A DNA stretch of 64,000 bases from Podarcis pityusensis (lineage: Eukaryota), in NCBI GenBank assembly GCA_964106645.2, contig OZ067046.1; one strand, 5' to 3'. A program made the position numbers and the translations under genes. Below are positions 1,132-32,914 of this stretch, piece by piece (position 1 is the stretch's first letter; each line of letters begins with the position of its first letter). The notes under the pieces are model-generated. The model made no database searches, was not told the origin of the DNA, and saw only the letters and a program-made list of their open reading frames with translations.

Positions 1132-1271
1132 AATCATAGAATTGTAGGGTTGGAAAGGACCACAAGAGTCCTCTAATCCAGCCCCCCTGCAATGCAGGAA
1201 TCTTTTGCCCAACATGGGGCTTGAACCCACAACCCTGAGATTAAGAGTCTCATACTCTACCGACTCAGCTA
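1132..1271 (-). mobile_element. SINE with tRNA-Lys(CTT)-derived head and CR1-derived tail
   Basis: 1207-1271 is the reverse complement of a near-canonical vertebrate tRNA-Lys-CTT body, lacking the 5' acceptor strand. 1132-1200 is a CR1-type 3' end (AATCATAGAATTGTAG...TCCAGCCCCCCTGCAATGCAGG on +). Confidence 0.85.
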
Positions 1272-3659
1272 TTCAGATATTCGTAGAAATTAGATTTAGT
1301 CTTCTCCAGAAGCTAGATCAGAATGTCCTAGCAGTATATTATATGGTGGATAGTAAACACATCAAAATATATGAAACCGTCTGGTATTATCGATTAAGGC
1401 TATTGACCTAGCTGGGATTATAAAATCCACAAGGAGTCTCCAGGAGCACAAGGAAAGGAATTGGAGCTAGCATGTTTGTCGCCCCCCCCCCCAAGTGCTT
1501 GCTTAATTCAGAAGAAAAATGCCTGAAGAGGGATATAATGGTACTTCTAGGTCTATCCTCTCAAAATTCTCCCTCAGACTTCTTTCCCTGCCATTTGCCC
1601 ATGGGTGAAATTTGGCTTCAGTTCAAAAGAGTAGGAAATTTATCGTTGACATTGGCCAAGTCAGATTTTCTCCCTGGCAACAGAATAGCAGTATTGGAAA
1701 CTTGCAGCTTCCTGGCTATAGCCTTAATTTGTATCACAGCTGGGGCTGCCCTCAATAAGTACAGGAGTGAGAGCCTCATGCAACAGTGGAGAGAATCAGA
1801 TAATACACAATTCTTAATTATAAAATAATTTGCACTAGGGCAGACACTACTGAGCTGGTTCATCGAGGTTGCAGAAGTATAAAAGTTCTGTAAATGCAAT
1901 GAGAATACACACTGAGCCTGACTGGTTCTTATAAACAGAGTAGGATAAAACAGTATTAATGCAAAGAGGTCTGTTAAAGAAATAGTTATAGAAAACAAAC
2001 AGGAAACAGACTCTACAACTGCATTGACTCTGCTATTGAAAAGACAATACAAACATGAACATATCTATTTCATAGGATCAAAAGGAGGATTGTGTTAAAT
2101 TATATATCTTAAAAGGTTGGATGTTACTGGCCCATGACACTTCTCCCTTGTTTTTACCCATAATTCTATTCCATTCCATTTATTTAGTGATGCTGTGAAT
2201 TTAACGATAAAAATAATTGATGTGATAATGTTTACAAAAGTTCACTATGACTTGATTGCTCACCATCATGCAGTATGTTCTTGTTGATTTGGAATAAGTG
2301 CCTATTTTCCCCCAAAGGAAAAAACAAACAAACAAATCCTGGTGAAGTTCCAAGTCCCTGGAATCTCACCCTCTTTAGCAGAGATTGGGGTGGGCTACAA
2401 CAATATTGTGGGGCATGTCATTCCTGAGTCTTTCTTAGATCAGGAAATGTGGTTGGGCAAGCAGGCAGACAGGCAGCAGAGCGCTACCTTTTTAGAGAGG
2501 TGGAGATACACACCAACCATAGAGACCTCACATTGATGGGGAAAGCTCATAACCCTTTGCCTACCAAAATTCTAAACCAATTCTAAAGTGCCCTGATAAT
2601 GAGCTAGAAAAATGGAAAGCTTTTTCATGAGGAAAAGGAAACCTTTAAGAAATTGGAGGGCCAATTTCAGCACAGGATGGTAAGCCAGTCAAATATGGGA
2701 ATGTATGTGCTCATTCAGTACATTTTATCATGGGCCTTCTTGGTTAAAGCACCCTAGATGTGGAACTCTCACACACAGGACATGCTGTACTGTTGTTCCT
2801 GATATTAACTGTGTTTTTATGTCCATGTCAGATGTTTATTTTCCATCAGTTTTACTGAAGTTGCTCTGCTCTGGAAAAAAACCTTCCTATGTCAATAAGT
2901 ATCAGGCTGATTCATCTATGAATTTTGCTGAAAAAAGGTAGAACACACAATATTTACAATAGATATCAAATGCTTGCATTTGATAGTGAGTGGCCTGTAC
3001 TTCTCTACAAAAAGTACAATCAATACATCCTTACTATAGTCAGATGTTTGTATTGTACCTAAACAAGCAAATTCACAAACCAACTATAGTGCCATTCATC
3101 ACTACAACTAAGTAGGTCTTGACCTGTCAGGCATCTGAGTAGAGAGGCTTTGTGAGAATTTAATACATACTCTTCTGAGTTTCTGAGGAACAAAGAAATA
3201 CAGATGTAATAGTACTTAGTAGAACTAAACTACCATGTACTATAGTTTCAGTGGATGGAGATGATTCAGCAACTATCAATTGTTGGTCATAGATGAGCAG
3301 TGAGTAACACTCATCTTTTATATTGCACAAAAGATCTTTGTATTAATTCTTATGTATAAGAGGACTGTGCTGCACTCACTATGACCACTTTCTTTTAAAA
3401 AAAAATGGGGGGGGGATTAATAATGTTATGAATAGAGAATTTCACATGGAAATAGATAACTTATAAGGAAAGTAAACAAATAATGGATTATTTTTCTTAT
3501 CAAAAGAAAAAAGTTTGTAACTAGTAAATTTCACTAAGATCACTCAAGTATCATTATCTACACTTAAAGAAGAATAACCATTGTTTGCACCAGAAAGTAG
3601 CATTAACATTTAACAGATATTTAGTTAGAAGCGAACACTGGATGCAGTAGGTGTTAGAC

Positions 3660-3795
3660 CAGGCTTTCTCAACCTCAGCTCTCCAGATGTTTTGAGACTA
3701 CAATTTCCATCATCCCTGACCACTGGTCCTGCTAGCTAGGGATCATGGGAGTTGTAGGCCAAAAACATCTGGAGGGCCGAGGTTGAGGAAGCCTG
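3660..3795. mobile_element. Palindromic hAT-type MITE
   Basis: Long terminal inverted repeats (TIRs) CAGGCTTTCTCAACCTC... / ...GAGGTTGAGGAAGCCTG. 8-bp TSD TGTTAGAC (3652-3659) / TATTAGAC (3796-3803). Confidence 0.85.
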
Positions 3796-6206
3796 TATTA
3801 GACACATTTCCATTCCCCTTTTTGTTCTTTTGTTCATTTTGCCTCTGCGTTTTGATTCTTCTGAATTCCATTTTTTGTGTGGATGTGTTGCTTGCACAAA
3901 GGAACAACACAGCTGCACAAAGGACTGGGGGGGCAACATGTTTAGTCCTGCCCCCTCCCGAGGTTGTGTGGCTTCTCTGTGCCCCTCATAGGTTGAAAAT
4001 TAGCCTGAGCAAAGAGCCTTTCCTATCCATGTAGACTCCACATGAGATAGAGCTCTGATCTTCCAGAGTTCCAAATCATGTGGGGAGCCGGTAGGGAGGG
4101 GGAAATTGCATGACTTCACACATAGGGGTCTGCATGTGCTTAAGTTGCCAGAGTTTCTTTTTATTCTTGGTCAGGACATCAGTACATTTGCCTCCTATTT
4201 TTCTGTGTGGAAACTGTAGATAGCATGAAATGGTAAGATGTTTTTCAGATCAATACTAATGCAGCTTATGATGTATTGTTTTCTTCTGTGTTCCATTGTA
4301 TAATCAGTGCAGTCATACTATACACACAAAGCAAAACAGATGACTTCCAGCAACATTTTGTAGGCCTTTCAGTGAATCAGATTTCTTGATGATATCATAG
4401 CTTCTCTTTTTCAAAGATGAATATTTAAAAGGCAGATCTGTCAAAGGTATATAATCCAAAAACTATTGTTTACAGAAACAGATTGATTTCATGAATATCA
4501 TCACAATTTCAGTCCTGCGTATTGTCTCATTTCCGGGCTCCATATCTTAGCTCACTTTTTTTTCTTTTTCTTTTTTAAAAAGTGGCTGATCTGCATTTTA
4601 TACTTTGTGCACCAGCAGCCCTCTATCCAGTGTCAGTAGCACAATTTCCCATGCCTATGTGATACAGTGGATTGAGGATAGCCTTGCTACAGGGGACAAC
4701 CATTCTAACAGCGGACTTTGCAGTACTGTTTGTTGTTCCTTTATTGTCTTTCCAACATAGCTGAACCACAGTGGGTCTGAAAAAGCAAAATATTTCTGCA
4801 TCAAAATGTAGTGAATCGATTCATTGTTGTGCATTGCTGAAGTTGCACCTTGTGGACTTAAAAAAAATATGCTTGCTGTACAAGGAATGCAAAAATAAAC
4901 CTCCATGTAGTGAATGAAACTGTAAATATAATAAGCTGTTAACTATATTGATCTCTTCTGCATTCACAGAGATTGAGAAGAAGAAAGAGAATTAAAATGG
5001 AGATAGGAGATTGAAATTGTCAAGTCTGCTGGCCATTCCACCATTTTCATAATCCTATTCTTTATGGACTTAGCAAGGCTGTTTTATTGATGTTGATTAC
5101 ATTTCATGAATCTTTCAATAACTGCCTTTTGAAGAAGATAGTATGCATATTTTAATGAAATGCAATACACTGAACCGTGCATTATATTAGAGCAGTAAGT
5201 TAACACAGTAGTTCCTTTATCATTTTAATATGGGGAACAAAGAGAGGGGAAGACATTGTCTTGCATACATGAAAGGGGGGAATAATTATATAAGGGGAGA
5301 AAACATTGGTTCCCCCCCCCCTTTTGATGTGAAGGGATAATTCTGCAAAGAACCCCCATCCAGAACAGCAGTGTTATTTATGACAACGTTGGAGGGTCAT
5401 AATACCCACCCAGAAATATGGCAGATTTCAGTGATGTTTCAAAGATATTTGTGATACCTGATAAGAGAGAGCAGGGAAATCAAAGCAACAGCATTATCCA
5501 TTTCATAGTGAACCGGTGCCACATCCATTTGAGCCTATAAAAAGTAGGACTGTGCACCAGATTCAATCAAATCCCATATTCTGAACCAAATCAGGCCAAT
5601 TTGGAGGGAAGCTTGGACCAAATCATATCAAGACAACTCAACTCTGGATTGAATTGGGCCATGTAAGCCTGCCTGGAGTGATCTAGGACTGTCAGTGGCT
5701 GGGGTGAGTGGTGAGAAGGGTACAGGATATGTGCTTTGTCCTTGCATGTCCCACAGTGACTAGACAAAATAAGTAGTGCCTCTCATCTGCAGAATTCAAA
5801 GACACTTATTCTCCACCCCTTGCAGCTGAGAGCTGAGGGTTTGATTCTATGGATGCTGCTTCTGAAGTGCCTTCCCTGTAGAGTGTGGCTTTGGAGAACC
5901 TGGGGCAGAGGCTGGTGGTCCTGGATAATTGGAACAGTTGTGTTGTGACCCACTGCATCTTTCCACCCATCTATTTTCATAGTTATTAATATTTGGATCA
6001 GTGAAAAGAGATCAATGTGTCCGAATAAGTCATGGAGCCCAAAGGACACACCCTGAAGCTTTGCTTAAATATAGAAATTCAATTATTTGCCTAGTTTTTT
6101 CATAGCTTTTTACTTCTTTTCTTAACATGCAGTTATTCATCTCTGTTCTTTTAAACTTCAATAATGTAAGCCTTAGAACCATATACATTATTTCTGAAAT
6201 TGCATG

Positions 6207-6264: not shown

Positions 6265-7942
6265 ATTTTTTTAAAACTGCCTCCAGCTCTCTTTCCCCCT
6301 CCAACATGCTTTAAAAATGTATCCATGACATTTTGAAGGGAATGGCAGTACATGAACTTTTCACATAAGGGGATGACTCCTCCACCATGAAAGAAACGTA
6401 GTCATTGTGCTCAGAAACCGGATTGTCTCTCTCAGCCCATTTTTAAGACCTTCCATTAAATTAAAAGTGAAAAAGTCAAGTGTACTACTTGCACCTTATT
6501 CTGCGTGTGATTGAGAGCTGGTCATTCACATTTTGAAGGGCTGGGAAAGATTATAAAGATAGTACCATGAGAAGTGCCTATTTCATCTAAAGTGTATCTG
6601 TTCTTTTGTGTTATACATTATACATCAGAGTGATATTTGAAGGGAGATTTATTATAATCTCTGGCGGGATGCTTTGTACATTTATAATGCAAAGCTTTTA
6701 TCTCAAATTCAGAGCATTATTTTAGAATAAATGTGCACTGTTTCATCGAGACAAGCCTACTTCTACTCAACAAGTGTCTATGTGAACTGAAAGTCTAGGC
6801 TTACGTTGATGGGGAGTGAATAGGGATGATGAAGGAAGAAGATGCTGGGGTCTTTGCTTTATTTCAGAGCCATGGCATTAAATTTCATTGGGTGCACATA
6901 TCTGCAGCACTCTGTGAAGAAAACATCCAGTCAATGTATTGTGGCTTCTCTGGGTCTTTTAGAGTCCCATGGTCAAAATGGTGAACAGGAGGGACTTCCA
7001 GGGTGGCGCCATTGGTAATGGCGGACTCCCTCTGATCCAGAGGGACTGGCTCTACGGGAATCGGGTCTGTTCCGCTACGGCGAAGCGGGGACCCTTGAAA
7101 AAATCACAGGCGGGTGAAGCCTGTGACCGTGGGACTCGGCGGGCACCTTTTGCGCCCCCCCAATCTGCAAAGGAGCTCAATTACGGGCTCCGGAGTGAAG
7201 CGGGGAAGTGGCGCGGTGCTGAGAGTCAACTGCTTCTTCCGTGGAGCGAAGCTGCACAGCCGTTACCGGAGAGCGCTACCTTTTTCCTGTGACAATTTGG
7301 CTACAAAACAACTACCCGTGAGTAGGTTAATTTCAGGAAAAAAGGAGAACAAAGACATAATTTGATACCGAAGCGGGGAGGCATAAACAGGAAGTCTGCC
7401 TTCCGTTCTTTGTAAATAGAGTAAAGCAACGAACGTGTAAGCTAAAACTTTGAAAGACGCTTGAAAAGGACTACAATTCTAACATCAAAACAAGTGATCT
7501 CCCCCCTTGGCTGCAGGAGAGGAGGGGGGAAAGGTGTGAACTGTATTTCCCTGCAAAAAGAGAGGAAAGGAAGCTAAAATCCACCGCTTAAAACCTGGGA
7601 ACGGGATGCCAATGGACAATAAGAATGCCGTACTGTGAAATGCGCTGTTGGTGAATAGAGTACTTTTTGACAGCTAACTCTGCAAGGGAGATACAATGTT
7701 TCCGGCTAGCTTTTCCTGGTTTTAAAGTAACTGGAAAATAACTGAAATTGAAACTGTTGTCTATTTTGTGAATTGGGGGATTAAAAAAGGTTTTGTTTTT
7801 TTTAAGGCAACAACTTCTGACTGCTACTGTGTCCCCCTAGAGGAAGCTTGAAACTATTACAATAACAACTGGGCCAGGGGAATTTTCCACTTCAAAACAA
7901 ATTCTGGCCGTGGGACTGACCTTGGGCTTTAACTAGAGTGTT

Positions 7943-8245
7943 ATGGCAGATTTGCCGCACGAAAAAACAACGAGGTCTGGTAGATCTTTTCGCCCAGACG
8001 TTGGGCTGCAGCAAAGAGCATCAACATCTGGCCCCTCTGGCCCCTCTGCATCATCAGGGGCTGCATTTGTACAACCTAAAGGAATGGCATCCGAAGATGT
8101 TTTAGCTCAGGCATTAGGTAAAATTAATGAATCTCTGGAAAAACTAAGTAAACAAGTAGCTGAAGCATCAATCAAAATTGATCAAAATACTACAAGTATC
8201 AACAATTTGGGACAGAAGGTAAATACTAATACAGAAACTATTGAG
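7943..8245 (+). pseudogene. L1 ORF1 N-terminal (coiled-coil) portion
   Basis: First long ORF after a ~950-bp 5'UTR. Heptad-like stretch LGKINESLEKLSKQVAEASIKIDQNTTSINNLGQKV. Runs out of frame into ORF2 sequence at about 8246. Confidence 0.6.
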
Positions 8246-8246
8246 A

Positions 8247-8420
8247 TGGAAGACACAAGATCTACCCACTCTGGAAGAATGGCAGATGAAGGTGATGGAC
8301 TATATGGAACTGGCGGAAATGACTGGCAGAATCCGAGACCAGGGAGAAGAGTTGGTGGAAGAAGATTGGAAGAAATTTAAAGACTACTTACAGAAATACT
8401 GTAAAATTAATGAATGTTAG
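8247..8420 (+). pseudogene. L1 ORF2 C-terminal 57 codons
   Basis: WKTQDLPTLEEWQMKVMDYMELAEMTGRIRDQGEELVEEDWKKFKDYLQKYCKINEC*; 54 of 57 residues identical to the minus-strand copy at 19251-19424. Confidence 0.8.
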
Positions 8421-8783
8421 AACGATGTCAGAATGAAGATACATGGTTTTAGCAGCAATATTACAAAGGAGTATGTAAAAATGGATTGTTAACAGGTGAG
8501 AATCTAAAGTTACAATATATTAAATTAAAGGATTAGGATAAAAACAAAGAGGGAAAGGATTTGCTGAATTAGCTAACTGGATTGGAATACAAAAAAGGGA
8601 GGTGTGAGGAGGTTAGGGAAACAAGTAAATGAAAGACAAGACATGGAAAGACTGATTTGTTTTTAAATGCTTTTACTTTTCTGTATTTTGTATTTTTTTC
8701 TTTTTTTCTTCTCTTTTTCCTATTTTTGTAACCTTTTTTTGAAACTTCAATAAATATCATTTTCAAAAAAAAACCAAAATGGT

Positions 8784-8964
8784 GAACAGGAAACTTCCTT
8801 ATACTGAGGTCCATCCAGTTCAGTATTGTCTGGACTTACTGGCAGTAGTTCTCTGGGATTTGGGTCAAGGGACATTCCTGGTCTTTCACTGAGATGCTGA
8901 GGATTGAACTTAAGATCTTCTGCATGCAAAACCAGTGTTCTGCCACTGAGCTATGGCCCTTCCC
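8784..8964 (-). mobile_element. Squam3-like tRNA-derived SINE
   Basis: Reverse complement begins GGGGAAGGGCCATAGCTCAGTGGCAGAAC (A box), has a GTTCAATCC B box and ends ...CTCAGTATAAGGAAGTTTCCTGTTC. The L1 TSD overlaps its tail. Confidence 0.75.
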
Positions 8965-9533
8965 CATTAACAACAGTGTGAGATTCTGCCATAATAAGTA
9001 CATGGAAGGTTAGGGCCATGGGAGGCAATTACCTGTGCAATTCTAGGTTCATACAAAATGTTTTATGGATGATTGGAATGTACACACCCAAAGGCCAATC
9101 CTATGTCACACCATGTGTACAATATGTAGACATCAGGAGTATGTGACTCATCCCTCAAAATTAATACAATGTGTAAACTAAACAATGTTTAGAAGCTAAT
9201 GAAATTGTTTTTATGTATGTAGAACAGTGCTAAGTGTGGGGAGCAAAAGCTGGCCCTGAGGCGGGCAATATTGGGGAAAGGGGTATAATTAAGGATTCTG
9301 AGGCTTACAATGGCTGTAGGCTGGTGACCTTTCACCCTCATTTCAATAACAATGATGAGGATACCACTATTTTTCCAAATTATCACCAGCAATCAAAAGG
9401 ACATGGTATAATTATATATAGAATTGCTATCTTCTCCATCCATTGACCACATCCAATAACAGAGGTGGCATCCTATGAAAATTCATACTGCTATGAAAAC
9501 TCAAGCAACAATAAACCAGTTTAAACTCTAAGG

Positions 9534-9855
9534 CAGGGGTCAGCAAACTTTTTCAGTAGGGGCCCGGTCCACTGTCCCTCAGACCTTGTGGGGGGCTGGA
9601 CTATAATTTTTTTGGGGGGGATAAACAAATTCCTAGGCCCCACAAATAACCCAGAGATGCATTTGAAATAAAAGCACACATTCTACTCATGTAAAAACAC
9701 CAGGCAGGTCCCACAAATAACCCAGAGATGCATTTGAAATAAAAGGACCCATTCTACTCATGTAAAAACACGCTGATTCCCAGAACGTCTGCAGGCCAGA
9801 TTTAGAAGGCGATTGGGCCAGATCCAGGCCCCGGGCCTTAGTTTGCCTACCCATG
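9534..9855. mobile_element. hAT (Charlie-like) non-autonomous DNA transposon
   Basis: Perfect 8-bp TSD CTCTAAGG (9526-9533 / 9856-9863). TIRs CAGGGGTCAGCAAACT / AGTTTGCCTACCCATG. Internal ~62-bp tandem duplication (9639-9700 / 9710-9771). Confidence 0.9.
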
Positions 9856-10011
9856 CTCTAAGGTGTCAAAATCCTTTCTTTTTCTTTTTCTGCTCTTCCC
9901 AAAGATATACGTATGCAGTTACCTGCAATGCCGTCCTTTGCACCCGATCTAAAACTTCTAGAGTCTCAAGTAGAAAAATCTACAAATGGTTCTAATTCAC
10001 TGACAATTCAG

Positions 10012-10804
10012 ACTATGGAAAAGGGGCTGATTTGTCGAGAAGGGTCAAAAACACTGTCAAGTTGGAGTTTCCACGAGTGAAAGGAACAGGAGATAAAGTA
10101 AAGTACAGGTATAAATATGAAGAAGAGCTGCGGAAGGGACATGGAAGAGATTTAAGGGCCTCGGACATAAGATTACCAGGTTAATGAACTAGATTGATGG
10201 GATAGAAAGGACTGACAAAACCCGGGACCAGGAGGAAGAGATGCTGGATGAAGATTGGAAGAAATTTTTTATTATTATTATTAGGATTGTTTTATAAAAT
10301 TGATGAATGTTAGAAAAATGTTGGAACGAAATTATTTGGCTTTAGCAAAAAGGTTAAAAGAATTATGTAAGAATATGTTATGGTTATGAGAAATTGGTAT
10401 AAATAAGATCTAAGTTTTAAGTCCTAAGGTTTTTTATAGTAAGATAAGGTTAAAATAGATTAATGTAATGTGATGACAGAATATTATGAAAAATGGAAAG
10501 GATTTGCTGTGACTATTAATAACTAGGATACAAAAAAAGGGAGGAGTGAGGGGGTCAAAGAAAGAAGGTAATGACAGTCAAGGATATGAGAATATTGGAT
10601 TTGTTTTTAAATTTTTGTGGCTTATTTTTGTTTTTTGATTGTGTTCTGTTACGTGCTTTGTTCTTATTTTTTGATTTTGATTTTTATCAATTTGTACTGC
10701 TGGATTGTGGTTTGTTTGTTTGTTTTGTTTTGTTTTTTCTCTTTCTTTTTCTTCTCTGTTTTTTCTGTAACTTTAAAACTCTTAATAAATATCATTAAAA
10801 AAAA
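10012..10804 (+). mobile_element. L1-related 3' retroposed copy with decayed ORF2 tail
   Basis: Perfect 19-bp TSD TAATTCACTGACAATTCAG (9993-10011 / 10805-10823). AATAAA and A-tail. RDQEEEMLDEDWKKF at about 10223-10267 is homologous to the L1 ORF2 end. Confidence 0.75.
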
Positions 10805-11507
10805 TAATTCACTGACAATTCAGTGTCTATTTAACACCGAAAGAGATTGAAACATTGGTAATTAATGTCCTGGGAGATTTAAGAGGGCATATGCACATAT
10901 TTGTAGATGCATTAGTATTTGCTGGCAGTGTTCAAACATTTCCAATAAAGTGAAATGTGATTTGGGCCATATGTTTCCTGGTTTCTTAATTGGTAATCAG
11001 TCTCATTGAGGGCAAGATTTATATGCTGGAAAGTAGTAAGGAGATAGTAAGGTAAAACACTGATGAAGGGACACATTAGGGAGGGTGTCTGCTCCCTGGA
11101 GGGGGCTGCTCATAATGACACAGATACAATACACACACAGTCCTGCAGGCTGTCAGTCACAGGATTATCGGAGAGCAGATGGCTTGGTGTCTCAGCTCCT
11201 CACACACGTTTTCCCCATACAACCTGTCACAAGAATTATTGTAAGGACTCCCCTATGTCTGATAAAGGGCATATTGTGATTGAGTTCATAGCCATGAATA
11301 GGATAAGAGCTGCTGAGGCACTGCACCTTCAAATATCTACATCTTTTCAGCTGAGTGGATCTATTTGTGTGACAGACTTTGCAGCCGGCTGATCTGACAA
11401 TGGTGGTGGCCGGAGGTGATGACAAGGGGCTCTGTGATGAGGATGACTTTGTGAGTGGGTCTGGTGAGCTATTTGCTTGGAAGGAATCATTTCTCACTCA
11501 CAACAAG

Positions 11508-12033: not shown

Positions 12034-14024
12034 AATAATAATAATAATAAATTTTATTTATATCCCGCCCTCCCCAGCCGAAGCCGGGCTCAGGGCGGCT
12101 AACAACACTAAAATAGTGCAACATTATAAAAACATCAAAGAATTAATTAAAATCAAAATTGATGGCAACCATAAACTAAAGTATTGTAAAGATTGCCAAA
12201 GGAGGGAGTCAGGCTGCGCCCTGACCAAAGGCCTGGTGGAACAGCTCTGTCTTGCAGGCCCTGCGGAAAGATGTCAAGTCCTGGAGGGCCCTTGTCTCTT
12301 GTGACAGAGCGTTCCACCAGGATGGAGCCGCAGCCGAAAAAGCCCTGGCTCTAGTTGAGGCCAGCCTAACCTCTCTGAGGCCTGGGACCTTCAAGATTTT
12401 TTTATTTGAAGACCGTAAGTTCCTCTGTGGGGCATACCAGGAGAGGCGGTCCCGTAGATACGAGGGTCCTAGGCCGTATAGGGCTTTGAAGGTTAAAACC
12501 AGCACCTTAAACCTGATCCTGTACTCCACCGGGAGCCAGTGCAGCTGGTGTAGCACCGGATGAATGTGATCCCGCAGCGAAGACCCCGTAAGGAGTCTCG
12601 CTGCGGCATTCTGCACCCGCTGGAGTTTCTGGGTCAGTCTCAGGGGCAGCCCCACGTAGAGCGAGTTACAATAATCCAGTCTGGAGGTGACCGTCGCGTG
12701 GATCACAGTGGCTAGGTCAGGGCGAGAGAGGTAAGGAGCCAACTGCTTAGCTTGGCGGAGATGAAAAAATGCTGCCTTTGTTATAGCTGCAATCTGCGCC
12801 TCCATGGAGAGGGAGGTATCGAAGATTACACCCAAACTCTTAACGGACGGTGCTGGCACTAATTGCACCCCCGCAAGAGATGGGAGTTGCCCCCTCAATC
12901 CCATATCGTCCCGTCCCAGCCAGAGGACCTCTGTCTTCGAAGGATTTAACTTCAACCGGCTCCCACGTAACCATCCAGCCACAGCTTCCAAGCATCTGAT
13001 CAGTGTGTCTGGGGCCGAGTCAGGATGGCCATCCATCAACAGATAGAGTTGGGTGTCATCAGCATACTGATGGCAGCCCAGCCCAAAACTCCGGACAAGC
13101 TGGGCGAGGGGGCGCATAAAGATGTTAAAAAGCATCGGGGAGAGTATCGCACCCTGGGGCACTCCACACACCAAGGAGTGGCGGGATGACAGTTCCCCCC
13201 CAAGCGCCACCCTCTGTCCCCGACCAGAGAGAAACGAGCGCAGCCATTGAAGGACTGTGCCCTGGATCCCCACGTCGGCAAGGCGGTGGTCCAGGAGTTC
13301 GTGATCGACCATGTCGAAGGCTGCTGACAGGTCTAGAAGAATCAGCAGCCCCGACCCGCCTCGATCCAGCTGCCTGCGGAGATCATCTGTTAGGGCGACC
13401 AGAGCCGTCTCGGTCCCATGACCAGCGCGGAAGCCGGACTGGAATGGATCCAGAGCCGATGTTTCATCCAGAAACCTACCAAGCTGTTCAGCAACCGCTC
13501 TCTCAATCACCTTACCCAGGAATGGAAGATTCGAAACTGGGCGGTAATTGGATAGATCTAAGGGATCTAATGATGTTTTCTTTAAGAGCGGACGCACCAC
13601 TGCCTCCTTCAGTTCCCCTGGGAATGTCCCGGTGCCAAGGGACAGATTGATGATATCCCCCAGGGGGGCCCGCACCTCGTCTGGACACGCTCTAATCAGC
13701 CAAGACGGGCACGGGTCGAGAGGACAGATGGTGGGCTTTCCAGCTCGGAGGAGTCTGTCCACATCGGCTGGGGATATCCGGTCAAAGTGGTCCAATACTG
13801 GACCCGAGGACAGTCGAGGGGCCTCCAGTTCCTTTATTGTATCCAAATTGGCAGGGAGGTCATGGCGGAGCGACAGGACCTTCTCCGCAAAAAAGCTCGC
13901 AAATGCCTCACAGCTGTGTGTCAAATTATTATTTAAATTTGGCTGTCCTTCGAGGGACGTTAAAGACCGAATTACACTAAATAATTGTGCCGGGCGAGAG
14001 CTAGCGGATGCAATGTTTTCAGAC
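12034..14024 (-). mobile_element. Young L2-clade LINE, 5'-truncated
   Basis: Uninterrupted RT ORF and CpG-rich sequence. 3' stem-loop CCGCCCT...AGGGCGG at about 12065-12098. (TTA)n tail at 12030-12050. Candidate TSD TTCATAAT (12026-12033 / 14025-14032). Confidence 0.9.
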
Positions 14025-14074
14025 TTCATAATGAACTTGCGTACAATTGGGTAGTGTAGCGTTTGCCATGACAC
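12209..14074 (-). CDS. L2 ORF2 reverse transcriptase domain plus C-terminus (no endonuclease); first ~17 aa come from flanking DNA
   Basis: Motifs NYRPVSNLPFLGKVIE, QSGFR..HGTETAL, LLDLSAAFD, GVPQGAILSP, YADD (13055-13066), SRLDYCN, LHWLPV. No stop in 621 aa. Expression is not shown by the sequence. Confidence 0.85.
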   Translation of the reverse strand: MSWQTLHYPIVRKFIMKSENIASASSRPAQLFSVIRSLTSLEGQPNLNNNLTHSCEAFASFFAEKVLSLRHDLPANLDTIKELEAPRLSSGPVLDHFDRISPADVDRLLRAGKPTICPLDPCPSWLIRACPDEVRAPLGDIINLSLGTGTFPGELKEAVVRPLLKKTSLDPLDLSNYRPVSNLPFLGKVIERAVAEQLGRFLDETSALDPFQSGFRAGHGTETALVALTDDLRRQLDRGGSGLLILLDLSAAFDMVDHELLDHRLADVGIQGTVLQWLRSFLSGRGQRVALGGELSSRHSLVCGVPQGAILSPMLFNIFMRPLAQLVRSFGLGCHQYADDTQLYLLMDGHPDSAPDTLIRCLEAVAGWLRGSRLKLNPSKTEVLWLGRDDMGLRGQLPSLAGVQLVPAPSVKSLGVIFDTSLSMEAQIAAITKAAFFHLRQAKQLAPYLSRPDLATVIHATVTSRLDYCNSLYVGLPLRLTQKLQRVQNAAARLLTGSSLRDHIHPVLHQLHWLPVEYRIRFKVLVLTFKALYGLGPSYLRDRLSWYAPQRNLRSSNKKILKVPGLREVRLASTRARAFSAAAPSWWNALSQETRALQDLTSFRRACKTELFHQAFGQGAA

Positions 14075-15182
14075 CGCCCCACATGTGCATTTCTAGTAAG
14101 CATGAAGTACACGTGAAAAGACCTGTATACCGAGTCCTGGCTTGCATAACTAGTGACCTTCCAAGTTGACAGATGGGTTAGATTAGGTTAGTGTTGTTGA
14201 ACTTTTTTAGGAAGACCCTAAAAGCTTGTAAAAGCTTTTCTTTTACAAAAATGCCAAAACAACAACAATGTGATTTTTCTATTTACTTGCCTAAGATCCA
14301 GAACAAAGTGCCACATTTCGGAAACTCCTCCCAGACGTCAATTCCACCTTTGAAATTTTGGTAATGTCTGGGACAATCTGGACATATGGCAGCCCTAGGT
14401 TAGCTAGTAAAGTATGCACCTATATGAAATACCCATTCCCAAGCAGGTGGAAATTGGGAACATAAGGTTATGTCCAATGTTGGTCATACTCAGAGCAGGC
14501 ATATCAGTAGCTAGAGTTTCAACCTGCTACAGCTAGTTGAGGAATTGATAGTTATGCTAAGGTTCCACACTGGGCCAAGCTCCCCTCACTTTCCCCCTAT
14601 CTTTCTGTAAGCACTAGCATTCTACTATGCTGGAAAGTTGGGAGAGCAATGGTGCCCCACCCACACCATTGACATTACTGTTCTTATAAATTATTCACAT
14701 TGGATTTGACAGATTATGTAGCTTTTTAATGTAAGTGTCTCATACTGTGCTTCTAAAAATGAAGACGTTATTTCTGTGCTCCGAGCCCACATTCCTAGTT
14801 CACTGAATTACATTAAGCAGACACCAAACCTTCAACCCAATAATAGAAAAGTCAGCTGTTTCATTCCCAAGTTACTAATATGGTGCTTCTACTTTAGAAT
14901 GCCACCAATTACTGCTGACATGGGTCATATCACGGGCTTTCATTACAATGAGCATTAAGAAAAGCCACTTACAATAGCTTAGCTTTTACAGCTGCATGAA
15001 ATTTCCGCCTGCATCTTTTTATGAGCATTGCCCTCCCCCAGCCGCTGCATAAATGAAGGTAACAAGCACTTATTATAAGCTGTTTCCTTGTCTCTGGCTT
15101 TTTCATCTTAACGCAGCATGAATGTGGCATACAACACGAAATTTCACAGGTTCCTTATCAGCATGGACATATATGTCCAATT

Positions 15183-15495
15183 TAGAATAATAGAATCATC
15201 TAGTCCAGCCACCTGAAATGCAGGAACCTCAATGAAAGCATCTATGAAAGATTGTCATCCAACCTCTGCTTAAAAACCTCCATTGAAGGAGAGTCCACCA
15301 CCTTCAAAGGGAATCCATCCGATGTCAAACAGTTCTTACCATCAGAAAGTTCTTCCTGATGTTCAGTCAGAATCTCCTTTCTTGTAACTAGAAGCCATTG
15401 GTTTGGGTCTTATCCCCCAGAACAGAAGATAACAAGCTTGCTCTATCTTTCATGTGACAACCCATTAGATAATTGAAGATGTCTATCATACAGCT
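15183..15495 (-). mobile_element. CR1 LINE 3' part, left of the BovB insertion
   Basis: TAGAATCATCTAGTCCAGC tail and TCCAACCTCTGCTTAAAAACCTCC...AAGTTCTTCCTGATGTTC, typical CR1 3' region. Confidence 0.8.
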
Positions 15496-17403
15496 GTCCA
15501 ACGTTGGCTGTCCAACGAGGCCTTACAAATAGCGGGAGAAAGAAGGCAAGCAAAATGCGAGGGAGATAGTGAAAGATACAGGAAATTGAATGCAGATTTC
15601 CAAAAAATAGCAAGGAGAGACAAGAAGGCCTTCTTAAACAAGCAATGCAAAGAATTAGAGGAAAACAATAGAATGGGGAAAACCAGAGATCTGTTCAAGA
15701 AAATTGGAGATATGAAAGGAACATTTCGTACAAAGATTACCATAATAAAAGACAAAAGTGGAAAGGACCTAACAGAAGCAGAAGACATCAAGAAGAGGTG
15801 GCAATAATACACAGAGGAACTATACCAGAAAGAAATGGATGTATCGTATACCCCAGGTAGTGTGGTTGCTGACCTTGAGCAAGACATCCTGGAGAGTGAA
15901 GTCAAATGGGCCTTAGAAAGCACTGCTAATAACAAGGCCAGTGGAAGTGATGATATTCCAGCTGAACTATTTAAAATTTTAAAAGATGATGCTGTTAAGA
16001 TGCTACACTCAATATGCCAGCAAACTTGGAAAACTCAGCAGTGGCCAGAGGATTGGAGAAGATCAGTCTACATCCCAATCCCTAAGAAGGGCAGTACCAA
16101 AGAATGCTCCAACTACCGCACCATTGCACTCATTTCACACGCTAGCAAGGTTATGCTTAAAATTCTACAAGGCAGGCTTAAGCAGTATGTGGACCGAGAA
16201 CTCCCAGAAGTGCAAGCTGGATTTTGAAGGGGCAGAGGAACCAGAGACCAAATTGCAAACATGCGCTGGATTATGGAGAAAGCTAGAGAGTTCCACAAAG
16301 ACATCTACTTCTGCTTCATTGACTATGCAAAAGCCTTTGACTGTGTCGACCACAGCAAACTATGGCAAGTTCTTAAAGAAATGGGAGTGCCTGATCACCT
16401 CATCTGTCTCCTGAGAAATCTCTATGTGGGACAAGAAGCTACAGTTAGAACTGGTATGGAACAACTGATTGGTTCAAAATTGGGAAAGGAGTACGACAAG
16501 GCTGTATATTGTCTCCCTGCTTATTTAACTTATATGCAGAATTCATCATGCGAAAGGCTGGCCTGGATGAATCCCAAGCCGGAATTAAGATCGCCGGAAG
16601 AAATATCAACAACCTCAGATATGCAGATGACACAACCTTGATGGCAGAAAGTGAGGAGGCATTTTAAGGAACCTTTTAATGAGGGTGAAAGAGGAGAGCG
16701 CAAAATATGGTCTGAAGCTCAACATCAAAAAAATGAAGATCATGGCCACTGGTCCCATCACCTCCTGGCAAATAGAAGGGGAAGAAATGGAGGCAGTGAG
16801 AGATTTTACTTTCTTGGGCTCCATGATCACTGCAGATGGTGACAGCAATCACGAAATTAAAAGACGCCTGCTCCTTGGGAGAAAGGCGATGGCAAACCTA
16901 GACAGCATCTTAAAAAGCAGAGACATCACCTTGCCAACAAAGGTCCATATAGTTAAAGCCATGGTTTTCCCAGTAGTGATGTATGGAAGTGAGAGCTGGA
17001 CCATAAAGAAGGCTGATCGCCGAAGAATTGATGCTTTTGAATTATGGTGCTGGAGGAGACTCTTGAGAGTCCCATGGACTGCAAGAAGATCAAACGCATC
17101 CATTCTTAAGGAAATCAGCCCTGAGTGGTCACTGGAAGGACAGATAGTGAAGCTGAGGCTCCAATACTTTGGCCACCTCATGAGAAGAGAAGACTCCCTG
17201 GAAAAGACCCTGATGTTGGGAAAGATGGACGGCACAAGGAGAAGGGGACGACAGACGACGAGATGGTTGGACAGTGTTCTCGAAGCCACAAGCATGAGTC
17301 TGACCAAACTGCGGGAGGCAGTGGAAGACAGGAGTGCCTGGCGTGCTCTGGTCCATGGGGTCACGAAGAGTCGGACACAACTAAACGACTAAACAACAAC
17401 AAC
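15496..17403 (+). mobile_element. BovB (RTE-clade) LINE, 5'-truncated, with inactivating lesions
   Basis: Motifs NYRTIALISHASKVMLKILQ, CFIDYAKAFDCVDH, YADD (16620-16631), FELWCWRRLLRVPWTARRSN. (AAC)n tail. 11-bp TSD ATCATACAGCT (15485-15495 / 17404-17414). Stops at 15805 and 16225; frameshifts near 16452 and 16660. Confidence 0.95.
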
Positions 17404-20421: not shown

Positions 20422-22235
20422 CAATATCAAGAACTGATCATGATGTCAGAGAGGCTGCCTCTCTGTGCAGTCTCAAGAACCATGCAAGTATAAAATCTCT
20501 AGCCTGAATGGAATTCCAATCCAGAGAAGGAAGAGAAAGTGGAGATGGAAGAAGTGGGGGGAATAACGATTGCATATAATTATAGCAAGCAAGCCCTAAA
20601 AACCTAGCCTCTAAAGGCAAAAGGCTGGCCTCAATAGGAATGTATTTGATACTGCAGGAGACTTCCTATAAAGAAGTGGCTACATGCAGTTGCCAAGGTA
20701 GGGATTTCCAAAATCTGGGAAGATGTAGGCAAGAAAAGATAGCATCAATCCTTTCTGCAGCCACTTTATCCCAGGGATGGGGGGGGGGAGGAATCCTTCT
20801 GATGCTGAGCTGGACCATTTATGTATTTTTAAGCTAATATGTACATGTCTCCGGAAGGAGAGCCTCTGGCTTTGATTTCCCTAATATTTATCTGTCTATT
20901 GGAAAGCTGATTGTGGGAGGCAAGCCAGGTTATTTCAGACTTCTTGCGATGTGCTTAGTGGCACAGGCCCAATGAGCATGGCATGAAGCAAAGTACCTAT
21001 CCCACTGTCAGCCAAATCTTTTCCACTTGAGCCGTTCTCCCCCCCCTCCTTGGAGCTGAGCCAGCCCAGTTCAGCTCTTTTGTAGGGAATGAGGAACCAG
21101 TATTGATTTCCCATTTAAGCCAATCTTGTGTGAGCCCACCGCTGCCTCCCTCGCTACCAACGTGGGGAGGGGGGAGCTATGGAGGAAACCAGCTGCAGCA
21201 CTTCCAGCAGAGAATTGCTTCTTTGAGACAGACCTGCACGGAATTGCAAATCAGGCAAATAAAAGGAGAAAATGGAAGGGCAGATAGGCTTTCCTTTCAA
21301 TCTAGATATACAGACAGCACTCCCTTTCTGTAAGAGGGAAACAGGGAATTTGCTTGTTAGAGCAAGTGAAGGGGATTCTTATTATGGGCTTCAGTGTAGT
21401 TGTCAGCCATAATAATGAATTCTTATACTGTCGTAGCCTTGGAACGGGCAGGTACTGTGAAGATACATATTTGTAATATGAAATAGTCATTGCAGCTATT
21501 TCAAAAGCACATGGAGATTTGCTGCAGCAGGACATTTTCTATGGAGTTTTAACTCGAGACTTTAATGAGCTATGGAGATTAGCAAACTTTTTGCAATAAC
21601 TGTTAAGTTCCTGGAATCGATGTGTGTTCAGCAGACATCCATTTCCAATTGATTTCATATTATCTCTAGTGTGAATTTGAGCAGTCTGTACTCTCATGCT
21701 GTGAGTGATGTTTTCCCATAAACTTCAAAAATTGATTTAAATATTTTCACAGCCTGATCCTATCTGTGCCTGTAGCTGTTGCAGTGCAAACAGCTACCAC
21801 TGTGCAAGGCAGGCAGGACCATGCTGCATGCTTCTAAGAGATGGGGGAAACCTCAGGCCACCTTTCCTAGCAAAGGCCCCTAGCATTAGGAACTGGGCAC
21901 CTCCCCCATGGACAATGTAACTAACATGTGTTTCAAGCCATTGGTTCCACAACATGCCCAATTCCCTTCCCGTCTTGAAAAAGCTCCCTGTACTTGAAGA
22001 TGTCTTTCCTGCACTAATAGTAGCACAGATTGTTTCTGCTGTGGTCAAGGGATGAGCAGGGACAGTTCCTGATGCTAGAACAAGGTGACAGGGAACCTTC
22101 ATCACTGTCCTGCATATTAGAAATGACAGAATATAAATATTCCTGGTGCCCATTGAATTCATGGTTGTGCTTCTCACAGCGGCCATCCAGGTGCTTGCAG
22201 AAATCATAGAAGTAGGAATTTGAAGTTGCTAGCGT

Positions 22236-22547
22236 GAGGGTGGGGGATCTAAGGCCCAAATATAGCTCTATAGGGCTCTCTATTCAGTCATTAGACTGTC
22301 CTCTGTGTCACCTGACTTCCCAGCCACCTCCTCAAGTATTCTGGCCAGGCTGGAATGTGATCTTCAACTGGGATAATGCCTCTAGCTTGCCTGGAAAGTA
22401 GACAGAGAGAAGTTTCACAACTAGTTCAAAAGCAAAATTTGCCTTCGTTGTTCCACCTAATTTTGCACCACTGGGATGTGGCTCCTGTAAGGTGGTCCAG
22501 AAGGGAACACAGCTGTTTAGCTGGAATAGCCCTTTTCCACCATTGCT
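22236..22547. mobile_element. Degenerate hAT MITE, probably the same family as 50967-51376
   Basis: Shares GGCTGGAAT and GCTCTCTA/GCTCTCAG-like internal segments and an AGGGTGGGGGA-like start with 50967-51376. Boundaries approximate. Confidence 0.4.
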
Positions 22548-28089: not shown

Positions 28090-29225
28090 AAGATCAGTGT
28101 GAGGCAGCTGTGGAAAAGGCACATTCCATGCTAGGGATCATTAGGAAAGGAACCGAAGATGAAGTAGGCAATATCATAATGCTGTTTTATAAATTTGTGG
28201 TACAACACACACACACACACACATATGGAATATTGTGCACAGTTCTGGGTGCCTGACATCAAAGGGGATATTATAGAAATGGAAAAGGTTCTGAAAAGAG
28301 CACCCAAACTATCAAGGGGATATAGCAACTCCCATATGGAGAAAAGTTACAAGGTGAGTAGTAGCAGATAAAAGGATGCATATAAAATTACGTATCTAAA
28401 ATTCTCCCTGCATGGCTTGGAAAAAGTCAAGCAATAAGAGCTTTTGTCTTCCCCTCATCAGTCTCATTCAATGAAGCTGAATGTTGAAAGATTTAAGAAG
28501 ACAAAAAAAAGATAACTTGTTTACACCGTGCATAGCTAAATTACGGAATGTGTTTCTACAAGTGGCAATGGTGACCATGAACTTGGATGGCTTTAAAAGA
28601 AGAATAAACAAATTAATGGAGGATAGGGCTATAATAGTAGTGATGTATGGAAGTGAGAGCTGGACCATAAAGAAGGCTGATCGCCGAAGAATTGATGCTT
28701 TTGAATTATGGTGCTGGAGGAGACACTTGAGAGTCCCATGGACTGCAAGAAGATCAAACACATCCATTCTTAAGGAAATCAGCCCTGAGTGCTCACTGGA
28801 AGGACAGATCATGAAGCTGAGGCTCCAATACTTTGGCCACCTCATGAGAAGAGAAGACTCCCTGGAAAAGACCCTGATGTTGGAAAAGATGGAGGGCACA
28901 AGGAGAAGAGGACGACAGAGGATGAGATGGTTGGATAGTGTTCTCAAGGCTACCAGCATGAGTTTGATCAAACTGTGGGAGGCAGTGGAAGACAGAAGTG
29001 CCTGGCGTGCTCTGGTCCATGGGGTCACGATGAGTCGGACACAACTAAACGACTAAACAACAACAACAAGGACTATAATTGGCTACTCGCCACAATGGCT
29101 ATGTTCTTTATTGTCAAAGGCCATACATCTCTTAATACCAGTTGCTGGGAATCACAAATGGGGAGAGTGATGCTGTGCTCAAGTCTTGATTGTGGGCTTT
29201 CATAGGCCTCTGGCTGGCCACCATG
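28090..29225 (+). mobile_element. CR1 LINE 3' part, interrupted by BovB
   Basis: QCEAAVEKAHSMLGIIRKG, GGAATATTGTGCACAGTTCTGG, NLDGFKRRINKLMEDRAI. The 3'UTR continues after 29069. Confidence 0.8.
28636..29068 (+). mobile_element. BovB 3' fragment
   Basis: Near-identical to 16972-17403. (AAC)n tail. TSD AGGGCTATAAT (28625-28635) / AGGACTATAAT (29069-29079). Confidence 0.95.
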
Positions 29226-32591: not shown

Positions 32592-32914
32592 GTGAATTAG
32601 GTAAGAATGTTATGGTTAGGAGAGGTTGGTAAAAATTAAGATTTAAGTTCTAAACTTTTTTATATATAAGATAAGATGAAAATAGATTAAGGTAATGTGA
32701 GAACAGAATATTATGAATTATGGAAAGGATTTGCTGTGATTATTATAAATCAGGATACAGGAAAAGGGAGGAGGAGGAGGTCAAGGAAAGAAGGTATTGA
32801 AAGTGGAGAATTGGAGAATGATGGTTTTACTTTTACTTTTTCTTTTTTTTTGTCTTGTTTCTTTTGTGTAATTTTAAAAAAAATTCTCAATAAATATCAT
32901 TTTAAAAAAAAAAA
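32592..32914 (+). mobile_element. L1-related 3'UTR fragment, same subfamily as 10012-10804
   Basis: Perfect 14-bp TSD TCTGGCTGGTTGGA (32578-32591 / 32915-32928). AATAAATATC plus A-tail. Aligns with about 10360-10800. Confidence 0.8.

What the first reader, a model, noticed from the sequence alone, without database searches (positions are those of the whole stretch)
6991..8774. Bipartite L1: intact ends and perfect TSD, but ORF1 N-terminus joined straight to the last 57 codons of ORF2
Seen: one 1.8-kb unit between perfect 17-bp TSDs carries a CpG-rich 5'UTR, about 100 codons of ORF1, a junction at 8243-8246 (...GAAACTATTG-AGA-TGGAAGAC...), the ORF2 tail out of frame, a 3'UTR and polyA. The sibling at 19.4 kb reads GCAAAGTATTGGAAGAC, so TATTG is a microhomology at the breakpoint. 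Between the two ORF2 tails I count 14 differences in 174 nt, 11 of them synonymous, so this tail came recently from a coding master element. Established: ordinary L1 copies lose the 5' end, while keeping both ends arises by splicing, template switching or later deletion. Inference: it retains promoter and polyA end, so it could belong to, or found, a non-autonomous L1-parasitic family. It could also express a coiled-coil-only ORF1p able to interfere with ORF1p trimers.
Basis: partly seen in the sequence, partly recalled or inferred. Interest (0 to 1): 0.7.

Follow-up and report, generated by a model that had tools for sequence, protein, structure and literature searches.

The report
Broken lizard L1 beside half-L1 family
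This jumping-gene copy is a one-off that lost its middle and has no second copy in the genome, but the same lizard genome holds hundreds of copies of a separate short element with a shrunken packaging-protein gene and no copying enzyme, which likely borrows that enzyme from full-length LINE-1.

Summary
The anatomy is real: a 1,784-bp L1 between perfect 17-bp TSDs, ORF1 codon 101 joined to the last 57 ORF2 codons. The junction occurs once in the 1.5-Gb genome. Both halves group with one young 6.1-kb subfamily. The join is blunt, with no microhomology and no GT-AG. Other large deletions, each with its own junction, occur in 4 of 33 sibling copies. This locus is a dead one-off, not a family.

66 of 83 loci carrying the same 5' motif are a separate ~2.2-kb family with distinct TSDs: L1 5'UTR, a 201-212-aa remodelled ORF1 under purifying selection, ORF2 tail, polyA (792 exact probe hits). 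Its first ~340 nt appear to have been captured from the window element's own L1 family. A truncated copy lies 1.2 kb downstream (10012-10804). It works like mammalian HAL1 but has a shortened ORF1; my searches found no lizard report. The scan noted a similar one-off elsewhere in this genome and HAL1-type families in other genomes, none matching by sequence. Novelty and score rest on this family.

The parts
6974..6990 (+). 5' target-site duplication (17 bp)
   Evidence: perfect repeat
6991..7942 (+). L1 5'UTR (family A); its first ~340 nt are the module shared with the short family
   Evidence: 97% to full-length copies; 24 CpG in 350 nt; identity profile
7943..8246 (+). [quoted passage not shown]
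   Evidence: ORF1p identity
8246..8247 (+). blunt deletion junction; about 4.35 kb lost (reference positions 1243-5588)
   Evidence: unique in genome
8247..8420 (+). last 57 codons of ORF2 plus stop, out of frame with ORF1 (the fused frame ends at 8380; 145 aa)
8421..8774 (+). 3'UTR, AATAAA at 8749, A9 tail
8775..8791 (+). 3' target-site duplication
10012..10804 (+). 5'-truncated copy of the separate 2.2-kb short-ORF1 family (S1); 19-bp TSD at 9993-10011 and 10805-10823; carries the last 56 codons of the short ORF
   Evidence: 96.8% to L088 over 800 nt
32592..32914 (+). second, shorter 3' fragment related to the short family; 14-bp TSD
   Evidence: 88-89% to L084, L040, L064
18846..19451 (-).
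   Evidence: 74% overall to the reference copy, 88% in the ORF2 tail

Best explanation
The element at 6991-8774 is a single copy of a young 6.1-kb lizard L1 that lost 4.35 kb of its middle in a blunt join found nowhere else in the genome, likely while it was being written into the chromosome. Inferred route: reverse transcription primed on the polyA copied about 530 nt, a usual stopping length for this family. It then resumed on the 5' part of the same L1 RNA by a homology-free template jump or end-joining, and finished at the true 5' end, leaving a normal TSD. The copy has no EN or RT and left no detectable progeny. The genuine parasite in this genome is a separate 2.2-kb HAL1-type family (shown: multi-copy, distinct TSDs, no ORF2, selected short ORF), which is likely mobilised in trans by full-length L1. 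Confidence: one-off 0.9; made at insertion rather than later about 0.55.
For: Unique junction. Both halves fall in the {L016, L019, L025} subfamily with FastTree support 1.000 and 0.995, at 1.6-2.7% substitutions from L016 and L025, so there was one parent type. Junction 0-bp microhomology, no insert, deleted ends AA..AT. Of 33 other 5'-retaining family-A copies, 4 have a >1-kb deletion plus TSD, each with a different junction and homology 0, 0, 0, 1; four small deletions (57-426 bp) show 2-4 bp. Two of those large junctions were searched and both were unique. 18 of 60 3'-anchored copies start at reference 5500-5700, so a 528-nt 3' piece is a typical first-strand length. Twin-priming-type inversions in L026, L030, L117 and L140 show insertion-time rearrangement in this family. 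Internal deletions form during reverse transcription by R2 in vitro (PMC13000458, passages). 11 private substitutions in 1,767 nt, 4 of the 6 in the 5' part of CpG type, fit a methylated resting copy.
Against: No direct test of timing: no orthologous allele was seen, and the junction was not checked in reads. The R2 in-vitro deletions carried microhomology, unlike this one. Blunt joins are equally typical of later end-joining. The grouping of 3' breakpoints at 5550-5621 was noticed after the fact, and no special RNA fold lies there (z -0.56).
Confidence: 0.55

Rival explanations
1. A full-length L1 inserted first; a later double-strand break repaired by classical end-joining removed 4.35 kb.
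For: A blunt junction and intact TSD fit equally well. The insertion is old enough to be shared by organisms A and B: flank-to-element contigs in X1, X4 and X5 at both ends, and in X7 at the 5' end. One-off deletions also occur in short-family copies L032, L097 and L107.
Against: The 3' piece length matches ordinary 5'-truncation lengths. Small deletions in sibling copies carry 2-4 bp homology while the large ones do not (4 against 5 cases).
Confidence: 0.33
2. An assembly error joined two ends of a full-length copy.
For: No read or contig bridging 8246|8247 was seen among the 32 pieces listed (14,942 more were not shown). One apparent deletion in a sibling (L027) was an N gap.
Against: No N in 6700-11000; the contig is 78 Mb; no homology at the join that would drive a collapse.
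Confidence: 0.05
3. It is a member or founder of a non-autonomous family.
For: It keeps promoter and polyA end. The same design succeeded in this genome as the S1 and S2 families.
Against: One junction hit genome-wide with up to 2 mismatches. It is 97% identical to family A but only 75-79% to S1 over the 5' 580-670 nt, and S1's junction lies elsewhere.
Confidence: 0.04
4. Retrocopy of a spliced L1 RNA (SpIRE-like).
For: Spliced L1 retrocopies exist in humans (PMC5860796, abstract).
Against: The deleted segment begins AACTG or AATTG and ends GTAT, GTAC or GCAT in 15 of 15 siblings; no GT-AG on either strand; no repeated junction.
Confidence: 0.02

Closest known systems
Lizard clade-1 L1 (Boissinot & Sookdeo 2016, PMC5381506; passages)
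   Same: GACTTCCGG-type 5' end, long 5'UTR, CC-RRM-CTD ORF1, overlapping EN/RT ORF2 in full-length siblings.
   Different: The window copy lacks about 4.35 kb. Clade placement rests on the 5' motif; I built no ORF2 tree with Anolis families.
HAL1 / half-L1 of mammals, including rat RNHAL1 (seen only through passages of PMC5753468, PMC5786205, PMC8535693 and PMC2241872; the primary paper, Bao & Jurka 2010, was not held)
   Same: Short family S1/S2: L1-derived, ORF2 deleted, 5'UTR plus ORF1-derived frame plus 3' end, hundreds of copies with their own TSDs.
   Different: Rat HAL1's 5' 2.6 kb is 98% identical to active L1. The lizard short ORF is 201-212 aa, 25-28% identical to the helper ORF1, and lacks the N-terminal ~48 aa, ~40 aa of the RRM and the C-terminal tail. 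It ends in its own conserved motif, and only its first ~340 nt track the helper. The window element itself is single-copy and so not a HAL1.
SpIREs (Larson et al. 2018, PMC5860796; abstract and outline)
   Same: Both ends kept, internal part missing, evolutionary dead ends.
   Different: SpIREs have splice-site junctions shared by many copies; this junction has neither property.
Truncated human ORF1p suppressors (PMC5605252; section 18 and passages)
   Same: The predicted window protein resembles the 98-aa construct (N-terminus plus 6 of 14 heptads).
   Different: It carries a 44-aa out-of-frame tail; expression is unknown; lizard ORF1p may not use the mammalian trimer code.

Membership tests
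L1 clade (parent family A) | ORF1p with coiled coil, RRM and CTD | tested here: met
   Profile hits human ORF1p 2ldy at E 1.5e-7; model matches 2ykp at E 1.9e-10. No Pfam L1 ORF1 hit.
L1 clade (parent family A) | ORF2 with APE endonuclease and RT | tested here: met
   1,249-aa frame in L018: RVT_1 E 3.8e-37, Exo_endo_phos E 3.6e-14
L1 clade (parent family A) | polyA tail and variable TSD | tested here: met
   TSDs of 10-20 bp called in 14 of 15 siblings
HAL1-type (window element) | many copies sharing one junction, with different TSDs | tested here: not met
   one hit genome-wide
HAL1-type (window element) | encodes ORF1p | tested here: not met
   only 101 of about 355 codons remain
HAL1-type (short family S1) | derived from L1 by loss of ORF2, both ends kept | tested here: met
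   5'UTR and ORF2-tail/3'UTR homology; ORF1-to-ORF2-tail switch within the last ~9 codons of the short ORF in 10 of 11 S1 and S2 copies, wider range in L064
HAL1-type (short family S1) | many copies of one structure, with different TSDs and polyA | tested here: met
   50 copies of 2,052-2,285 bp with distinct TSDs, 47 of 50 ending in the polyA signal; 792 exact probe hits
HAL1-type (short family S1) | ORF1-derived frame maintained by selection | tested here: met
   hhalign to ORF1 probability 94.6, E 7e-8, 200 columns; dN/dS 0.26-0.61 against 0.54-1.27 in shifted frames, with no contrast in 1 of 8 pairs; 2 of 2 shared indels are multiples of 3, against 5 of 40 in the UTRs
HAL1-type (short family S1) | full-length, helper-like ORF1p (as in rat HAL1) | tested here: not met
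   201-212 aa, 25-28% identity, half the RRM missing
HAL1-type (short family S1) | mobilised in trans by L1 ORF2p | not testable with these tools
   inferred from TSD, polyA, absence of RT and the shared promoter module
SpIRE | GT-AG at the deleted ends | tested here: not met
   AA..AT ends

The most novel reading that the evidence does not exclude
Lacertid lizards carry an old, recently active half-L1 lineage that has turned ORF1 into a new ~210-aa protein: the coiled-coil start is kept, the RRM is gutted, and a new invariant C-terminal motif ends it. The protein acts as an adaptor, docking the parasite's RNA on helper ORF1p/ORF2p particles and defeating cis-preference. The lineage renewed its promoter by capturing the first ~340 nt of the then-current helper, and now outnumbers that helper. 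The window element is a frozen example of the deletion step that founds such lineages.
Probability: 0.3. Interest if true: 0.7.

Novelty: new variant of a known kind. Interest (0 to 1): 0.45.

Why it matters
For the locus: it is ordinary decay. Both-ends-kept L1 deletions are common and nearly always sterile here (4 of 33 siblings), so a single such copy should not be read as a family. For the short family: the HAL1 passages I read concern mammals, and rat HAL1 stays nearly identical to active L1. A reptile lineage that keeps a shrunken, diverged ORF1 under purifying selection isolates what ORF1p does for its own RNA apart from ORF2. It makes testable how a Pol II parasite beats L1 cis-preference, and it records promoter capture from helper to parasite.

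Tried and rejected
TATTG microhomology: offset from the join and not above chance (17%). Splicing: no GT-AG. Chimera of two subfamilies: both halves have the same nearest copies. RNA hairpin as a stall site at the 3' break: z -0.56. L027 as a deletion: an N gap, dropped from the count. L015's 1,251-aa frame as L1 ORF2: the frame before it is gag-like, so it was dropped. 'Helper captured the parasite's promoter', suggested by the midpoint tree: rejected once sister family B was added, since A-B identity is flat across nt 340 while A-S1 identity drops. 'S1 shares the window's 3' breakpoint': the best switch lies 20-47 nt past the motif, beside homology that starts at reference ~5635, not 5589. 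AlphaFold model of the short ORF: pLDDT 33.5, uninformative. Pfam and Atlas: nothing usable for the short ORF. Expression: no RNA holder listed. The junction itself was not examined in reads, so that question stays open. Literature searches listed no paper on a lizard half-L1; Repbase, Dfam and the primary HAL1 paper could not be consulted, and no supplements were read.

Full report
OBSERVATION. The window is G000:C9:44702001-44766000 in a 1.5-Gb genome. The nearest named proteins come from Podarcis species, so a lacertid lizard is inferred. The element spans 6991-8774 between perfect 17-bp TSDs. ORF1 starts at 7943, the ORF2 tail stops at 8420, AATAAA is at 8749 and nine A's follow. The junction reading needs correcting. 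In 15 of 15 siblings the ORF1 side reads through AGA, so the join is 8246|8247, blunt, with no insert and no GT-AG (13 intact copies rechecked). TATTG ends 3 nt upstream of the break, and such offset 5-mers occur at 17% of random breakpoint pairs.

PARENT. Both halves are 97% identical to 6.1-kb copies and group with L016, L019 and L025 (support 1.000 and 0.995). Family A is a true L1: its ORF1 profile and model match human ORF1p, and ORF2 has EN and RT. The 5' end resembles the lizard clade-1 consensus (PMC5381506, passages). The deletion is 4,346 bp against L016.

NOT A FAMILY. Only this locus spans the junction among 40 scored of 745 candidates, and the 25-mer with up to 2 mismatches has one hit. 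I examined 33 other 5'-retaining family-A loci: 20 and 13. Four have a deletion over 1 kb plus a TSD (L013, L049, L056, L078), with homology 0, 0, 0, 1; L049's 3' side aligns poorly. Four deletions of 57-426 bp have 2-4 bp of homology. L027 was dropped as an N gap. The L056 and L013 junctions are also unique among 40 scored matches each. One-off deletions are thus routine here.

TIMING (inferred). I fetched 60 of 510 copies anchored on a 3' probe. None reached the 5' end in one piece, and 18 of 60 begin at reference 5500-5700, so the window's 528-nt 3' piece is a normal first-strand length. Twin-priming-type inversions occur in the family. R2 makes internal deletions during reverse transcription in vitro, though with microhomology (PMC13000458, passages). 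End-joining resolves human L1 insertions (PMC11702581, passages). I favour formation at insertion (0.55) over later end-joining (0.33). Contigs of X1 and X4 (organism A) and X5 (organism B) run from both flanks into the element, X7 from the 5' flank, and no empty-site joint was listed. The insertion therefore predates that split if the labels are species. The junction itself was not seen in reads.

PROTEIN. The fused frame gives 145 aa: 101 from ORF1 and 44 out of frame. The coiled coil is predicted at residues 51-148, so only its N-terminal half remains. In human ORF1p that half stays monomeric and unstructured (PMC5940361, passages), but a 98-aa construct still reduced retrotransposition when over-expressed (PMC5605252, section 18). 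With one copy, CpG decay (4 of 6 private 5' changes) and no expression data, a dominant-negative role is possible but unsupported.

THE FAMILY NEXT DOOR. The 5' motif has 301 exact hits. Of the first 83 listed, I fetched 80; three were full-length-type copies already held. 66 are a different element, one is a 212-nt stub, and 16 are family-A type. The script called TSDs for 61 loci, several of them spurious. 50 copies measure 2,052-2,285 bp with distinct TSDs, 47 of 50 end in the polyA signal, and 28 of 50 keep an open 201-212-aa frame. Median nearest-neighbour identity is 97.5% and all-pair median 88%, meaning several recent subfamilies. A probe 1 kb from the 3' end has 792 exact hits (carried by 39 of 50 sampled copies). 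The family-A probe, only 300 nt from the end, has 510 (23 of 34 sampled). Two truncated copies lie in the window.

The short ORF is ORF1-derived (probability 94.6, E 7e-8, 28% identity). It lacks the first ~48 aa, 7 aa of coiled coil, ~40 aa of RRM, 12 aa of CTD and the tail. Between subfamilies dN/dS is 0.23-0.59, and 1.09 within the youngest group. In 8 pairs it is 0.26-0.61 against 0.54-1.27 in the shifted frames, rising to 0.35-0.80 with transition weighting; one pair shows no contrast. Shared indels number 2 in the ORF, both multiples of 3, against 40 in the UTRs, 5 of them multiples of 3. Only copies with open frames were used. A second family, S2 (206 aa, 150 scored matches), has the same layout and junction zone. 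Unnamed Logan proteins at about 30% identity keep the C-terminal motif, so the lineage is old. The first ~340 nt of S1 are 90-98% identical between L060 and family-A copy L042, and 40-76% beyond. Family A against sister autonomous family B stays at 78-94% throughout. The simplest reading is that S1's ancestor captured A's promoter module, which makes A the likely helper (inferred; S1 monophyly in that segment is unresolved, support 30/0).

COMPARISON AND NOVELTY. The locus works like a SpIRE-type dead end but is not a SpIRE, and it fails HAL1 membership. S1/S2 work like HAL1 (PMC5753468, PMC5786205, PMC8535693, PMC2241872; passages) but fail the helper-like-ORF1 feature, hence 'new variant'. 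Searches listed no lizard half-L1 paper. The primary HAL1 paper was not held, and repeat libraries were not available, so prior unnamed entries are quite possible. Scan notes show a similar one-off in this genome and HAL1-type families elsewhere; none matched by sequence.

VERDICT. The locus alone is ordinary (about 0.15). With the short-ORF1 family it led to, interest is 0.45.

Noticed in passing
L202-L213: Second short family S2: 206-aa ORF, about 2.1-2.2 kb, 5' end only 73-77% to families A, B and S1; its helper was not found.
   Followed up: partly
L172-L201: Sister autonomous L1 family B, about 82% to family A, with over 100 ORF1 matches, many on contig C19.
   Followed up: partly
L032, L097, L107: One-off internal deletions in short-family copies; all three 5' breaks fall at nt 846-862, in a purine-rich stretch, without GT-AG.
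   Followed up: partly
L026, L030, L117, L140, L023: Twin-priming-type inversions, and one 3.4-kb internal tandem duplication (L023), in family-A copies.
   Followed up: no
L015:4383-9001: Gag-like frame with a zinc knuckle followed by a 1,251-aa frame; looks like a gypsy-type LTR element (recalled resemblance, not tested).
   Followed up: no
P0007, P0008: Podarcis muralis proteins annotated as TRIM39-like or uncharacterised, with RING and B-box domains plus a 73-79% match to L1 ORF1; a gene-model artefact or a fusion.
   Followed up: no
window 12209-14092 (-): 627-aa RT-like open frame resembling an L2/CR1-type LINE (recalled resemblance, not tested).
   Followed up: no
window 15469-17392 and 28481-29056 (+): Broken RTE/BovB-like frames (recalled resemblance); the two 3' parts are 97% identical over 300 nt.
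   Followed up: no
window 21700-22300 (-): Decayed frame with Cys/His-rich stretches, unidentified.
   Followed up: partly
L037:290-394: Only the first 105 nt of the L1 5'UTR (98%), followed by unrelated sequence.
   Followed up: no
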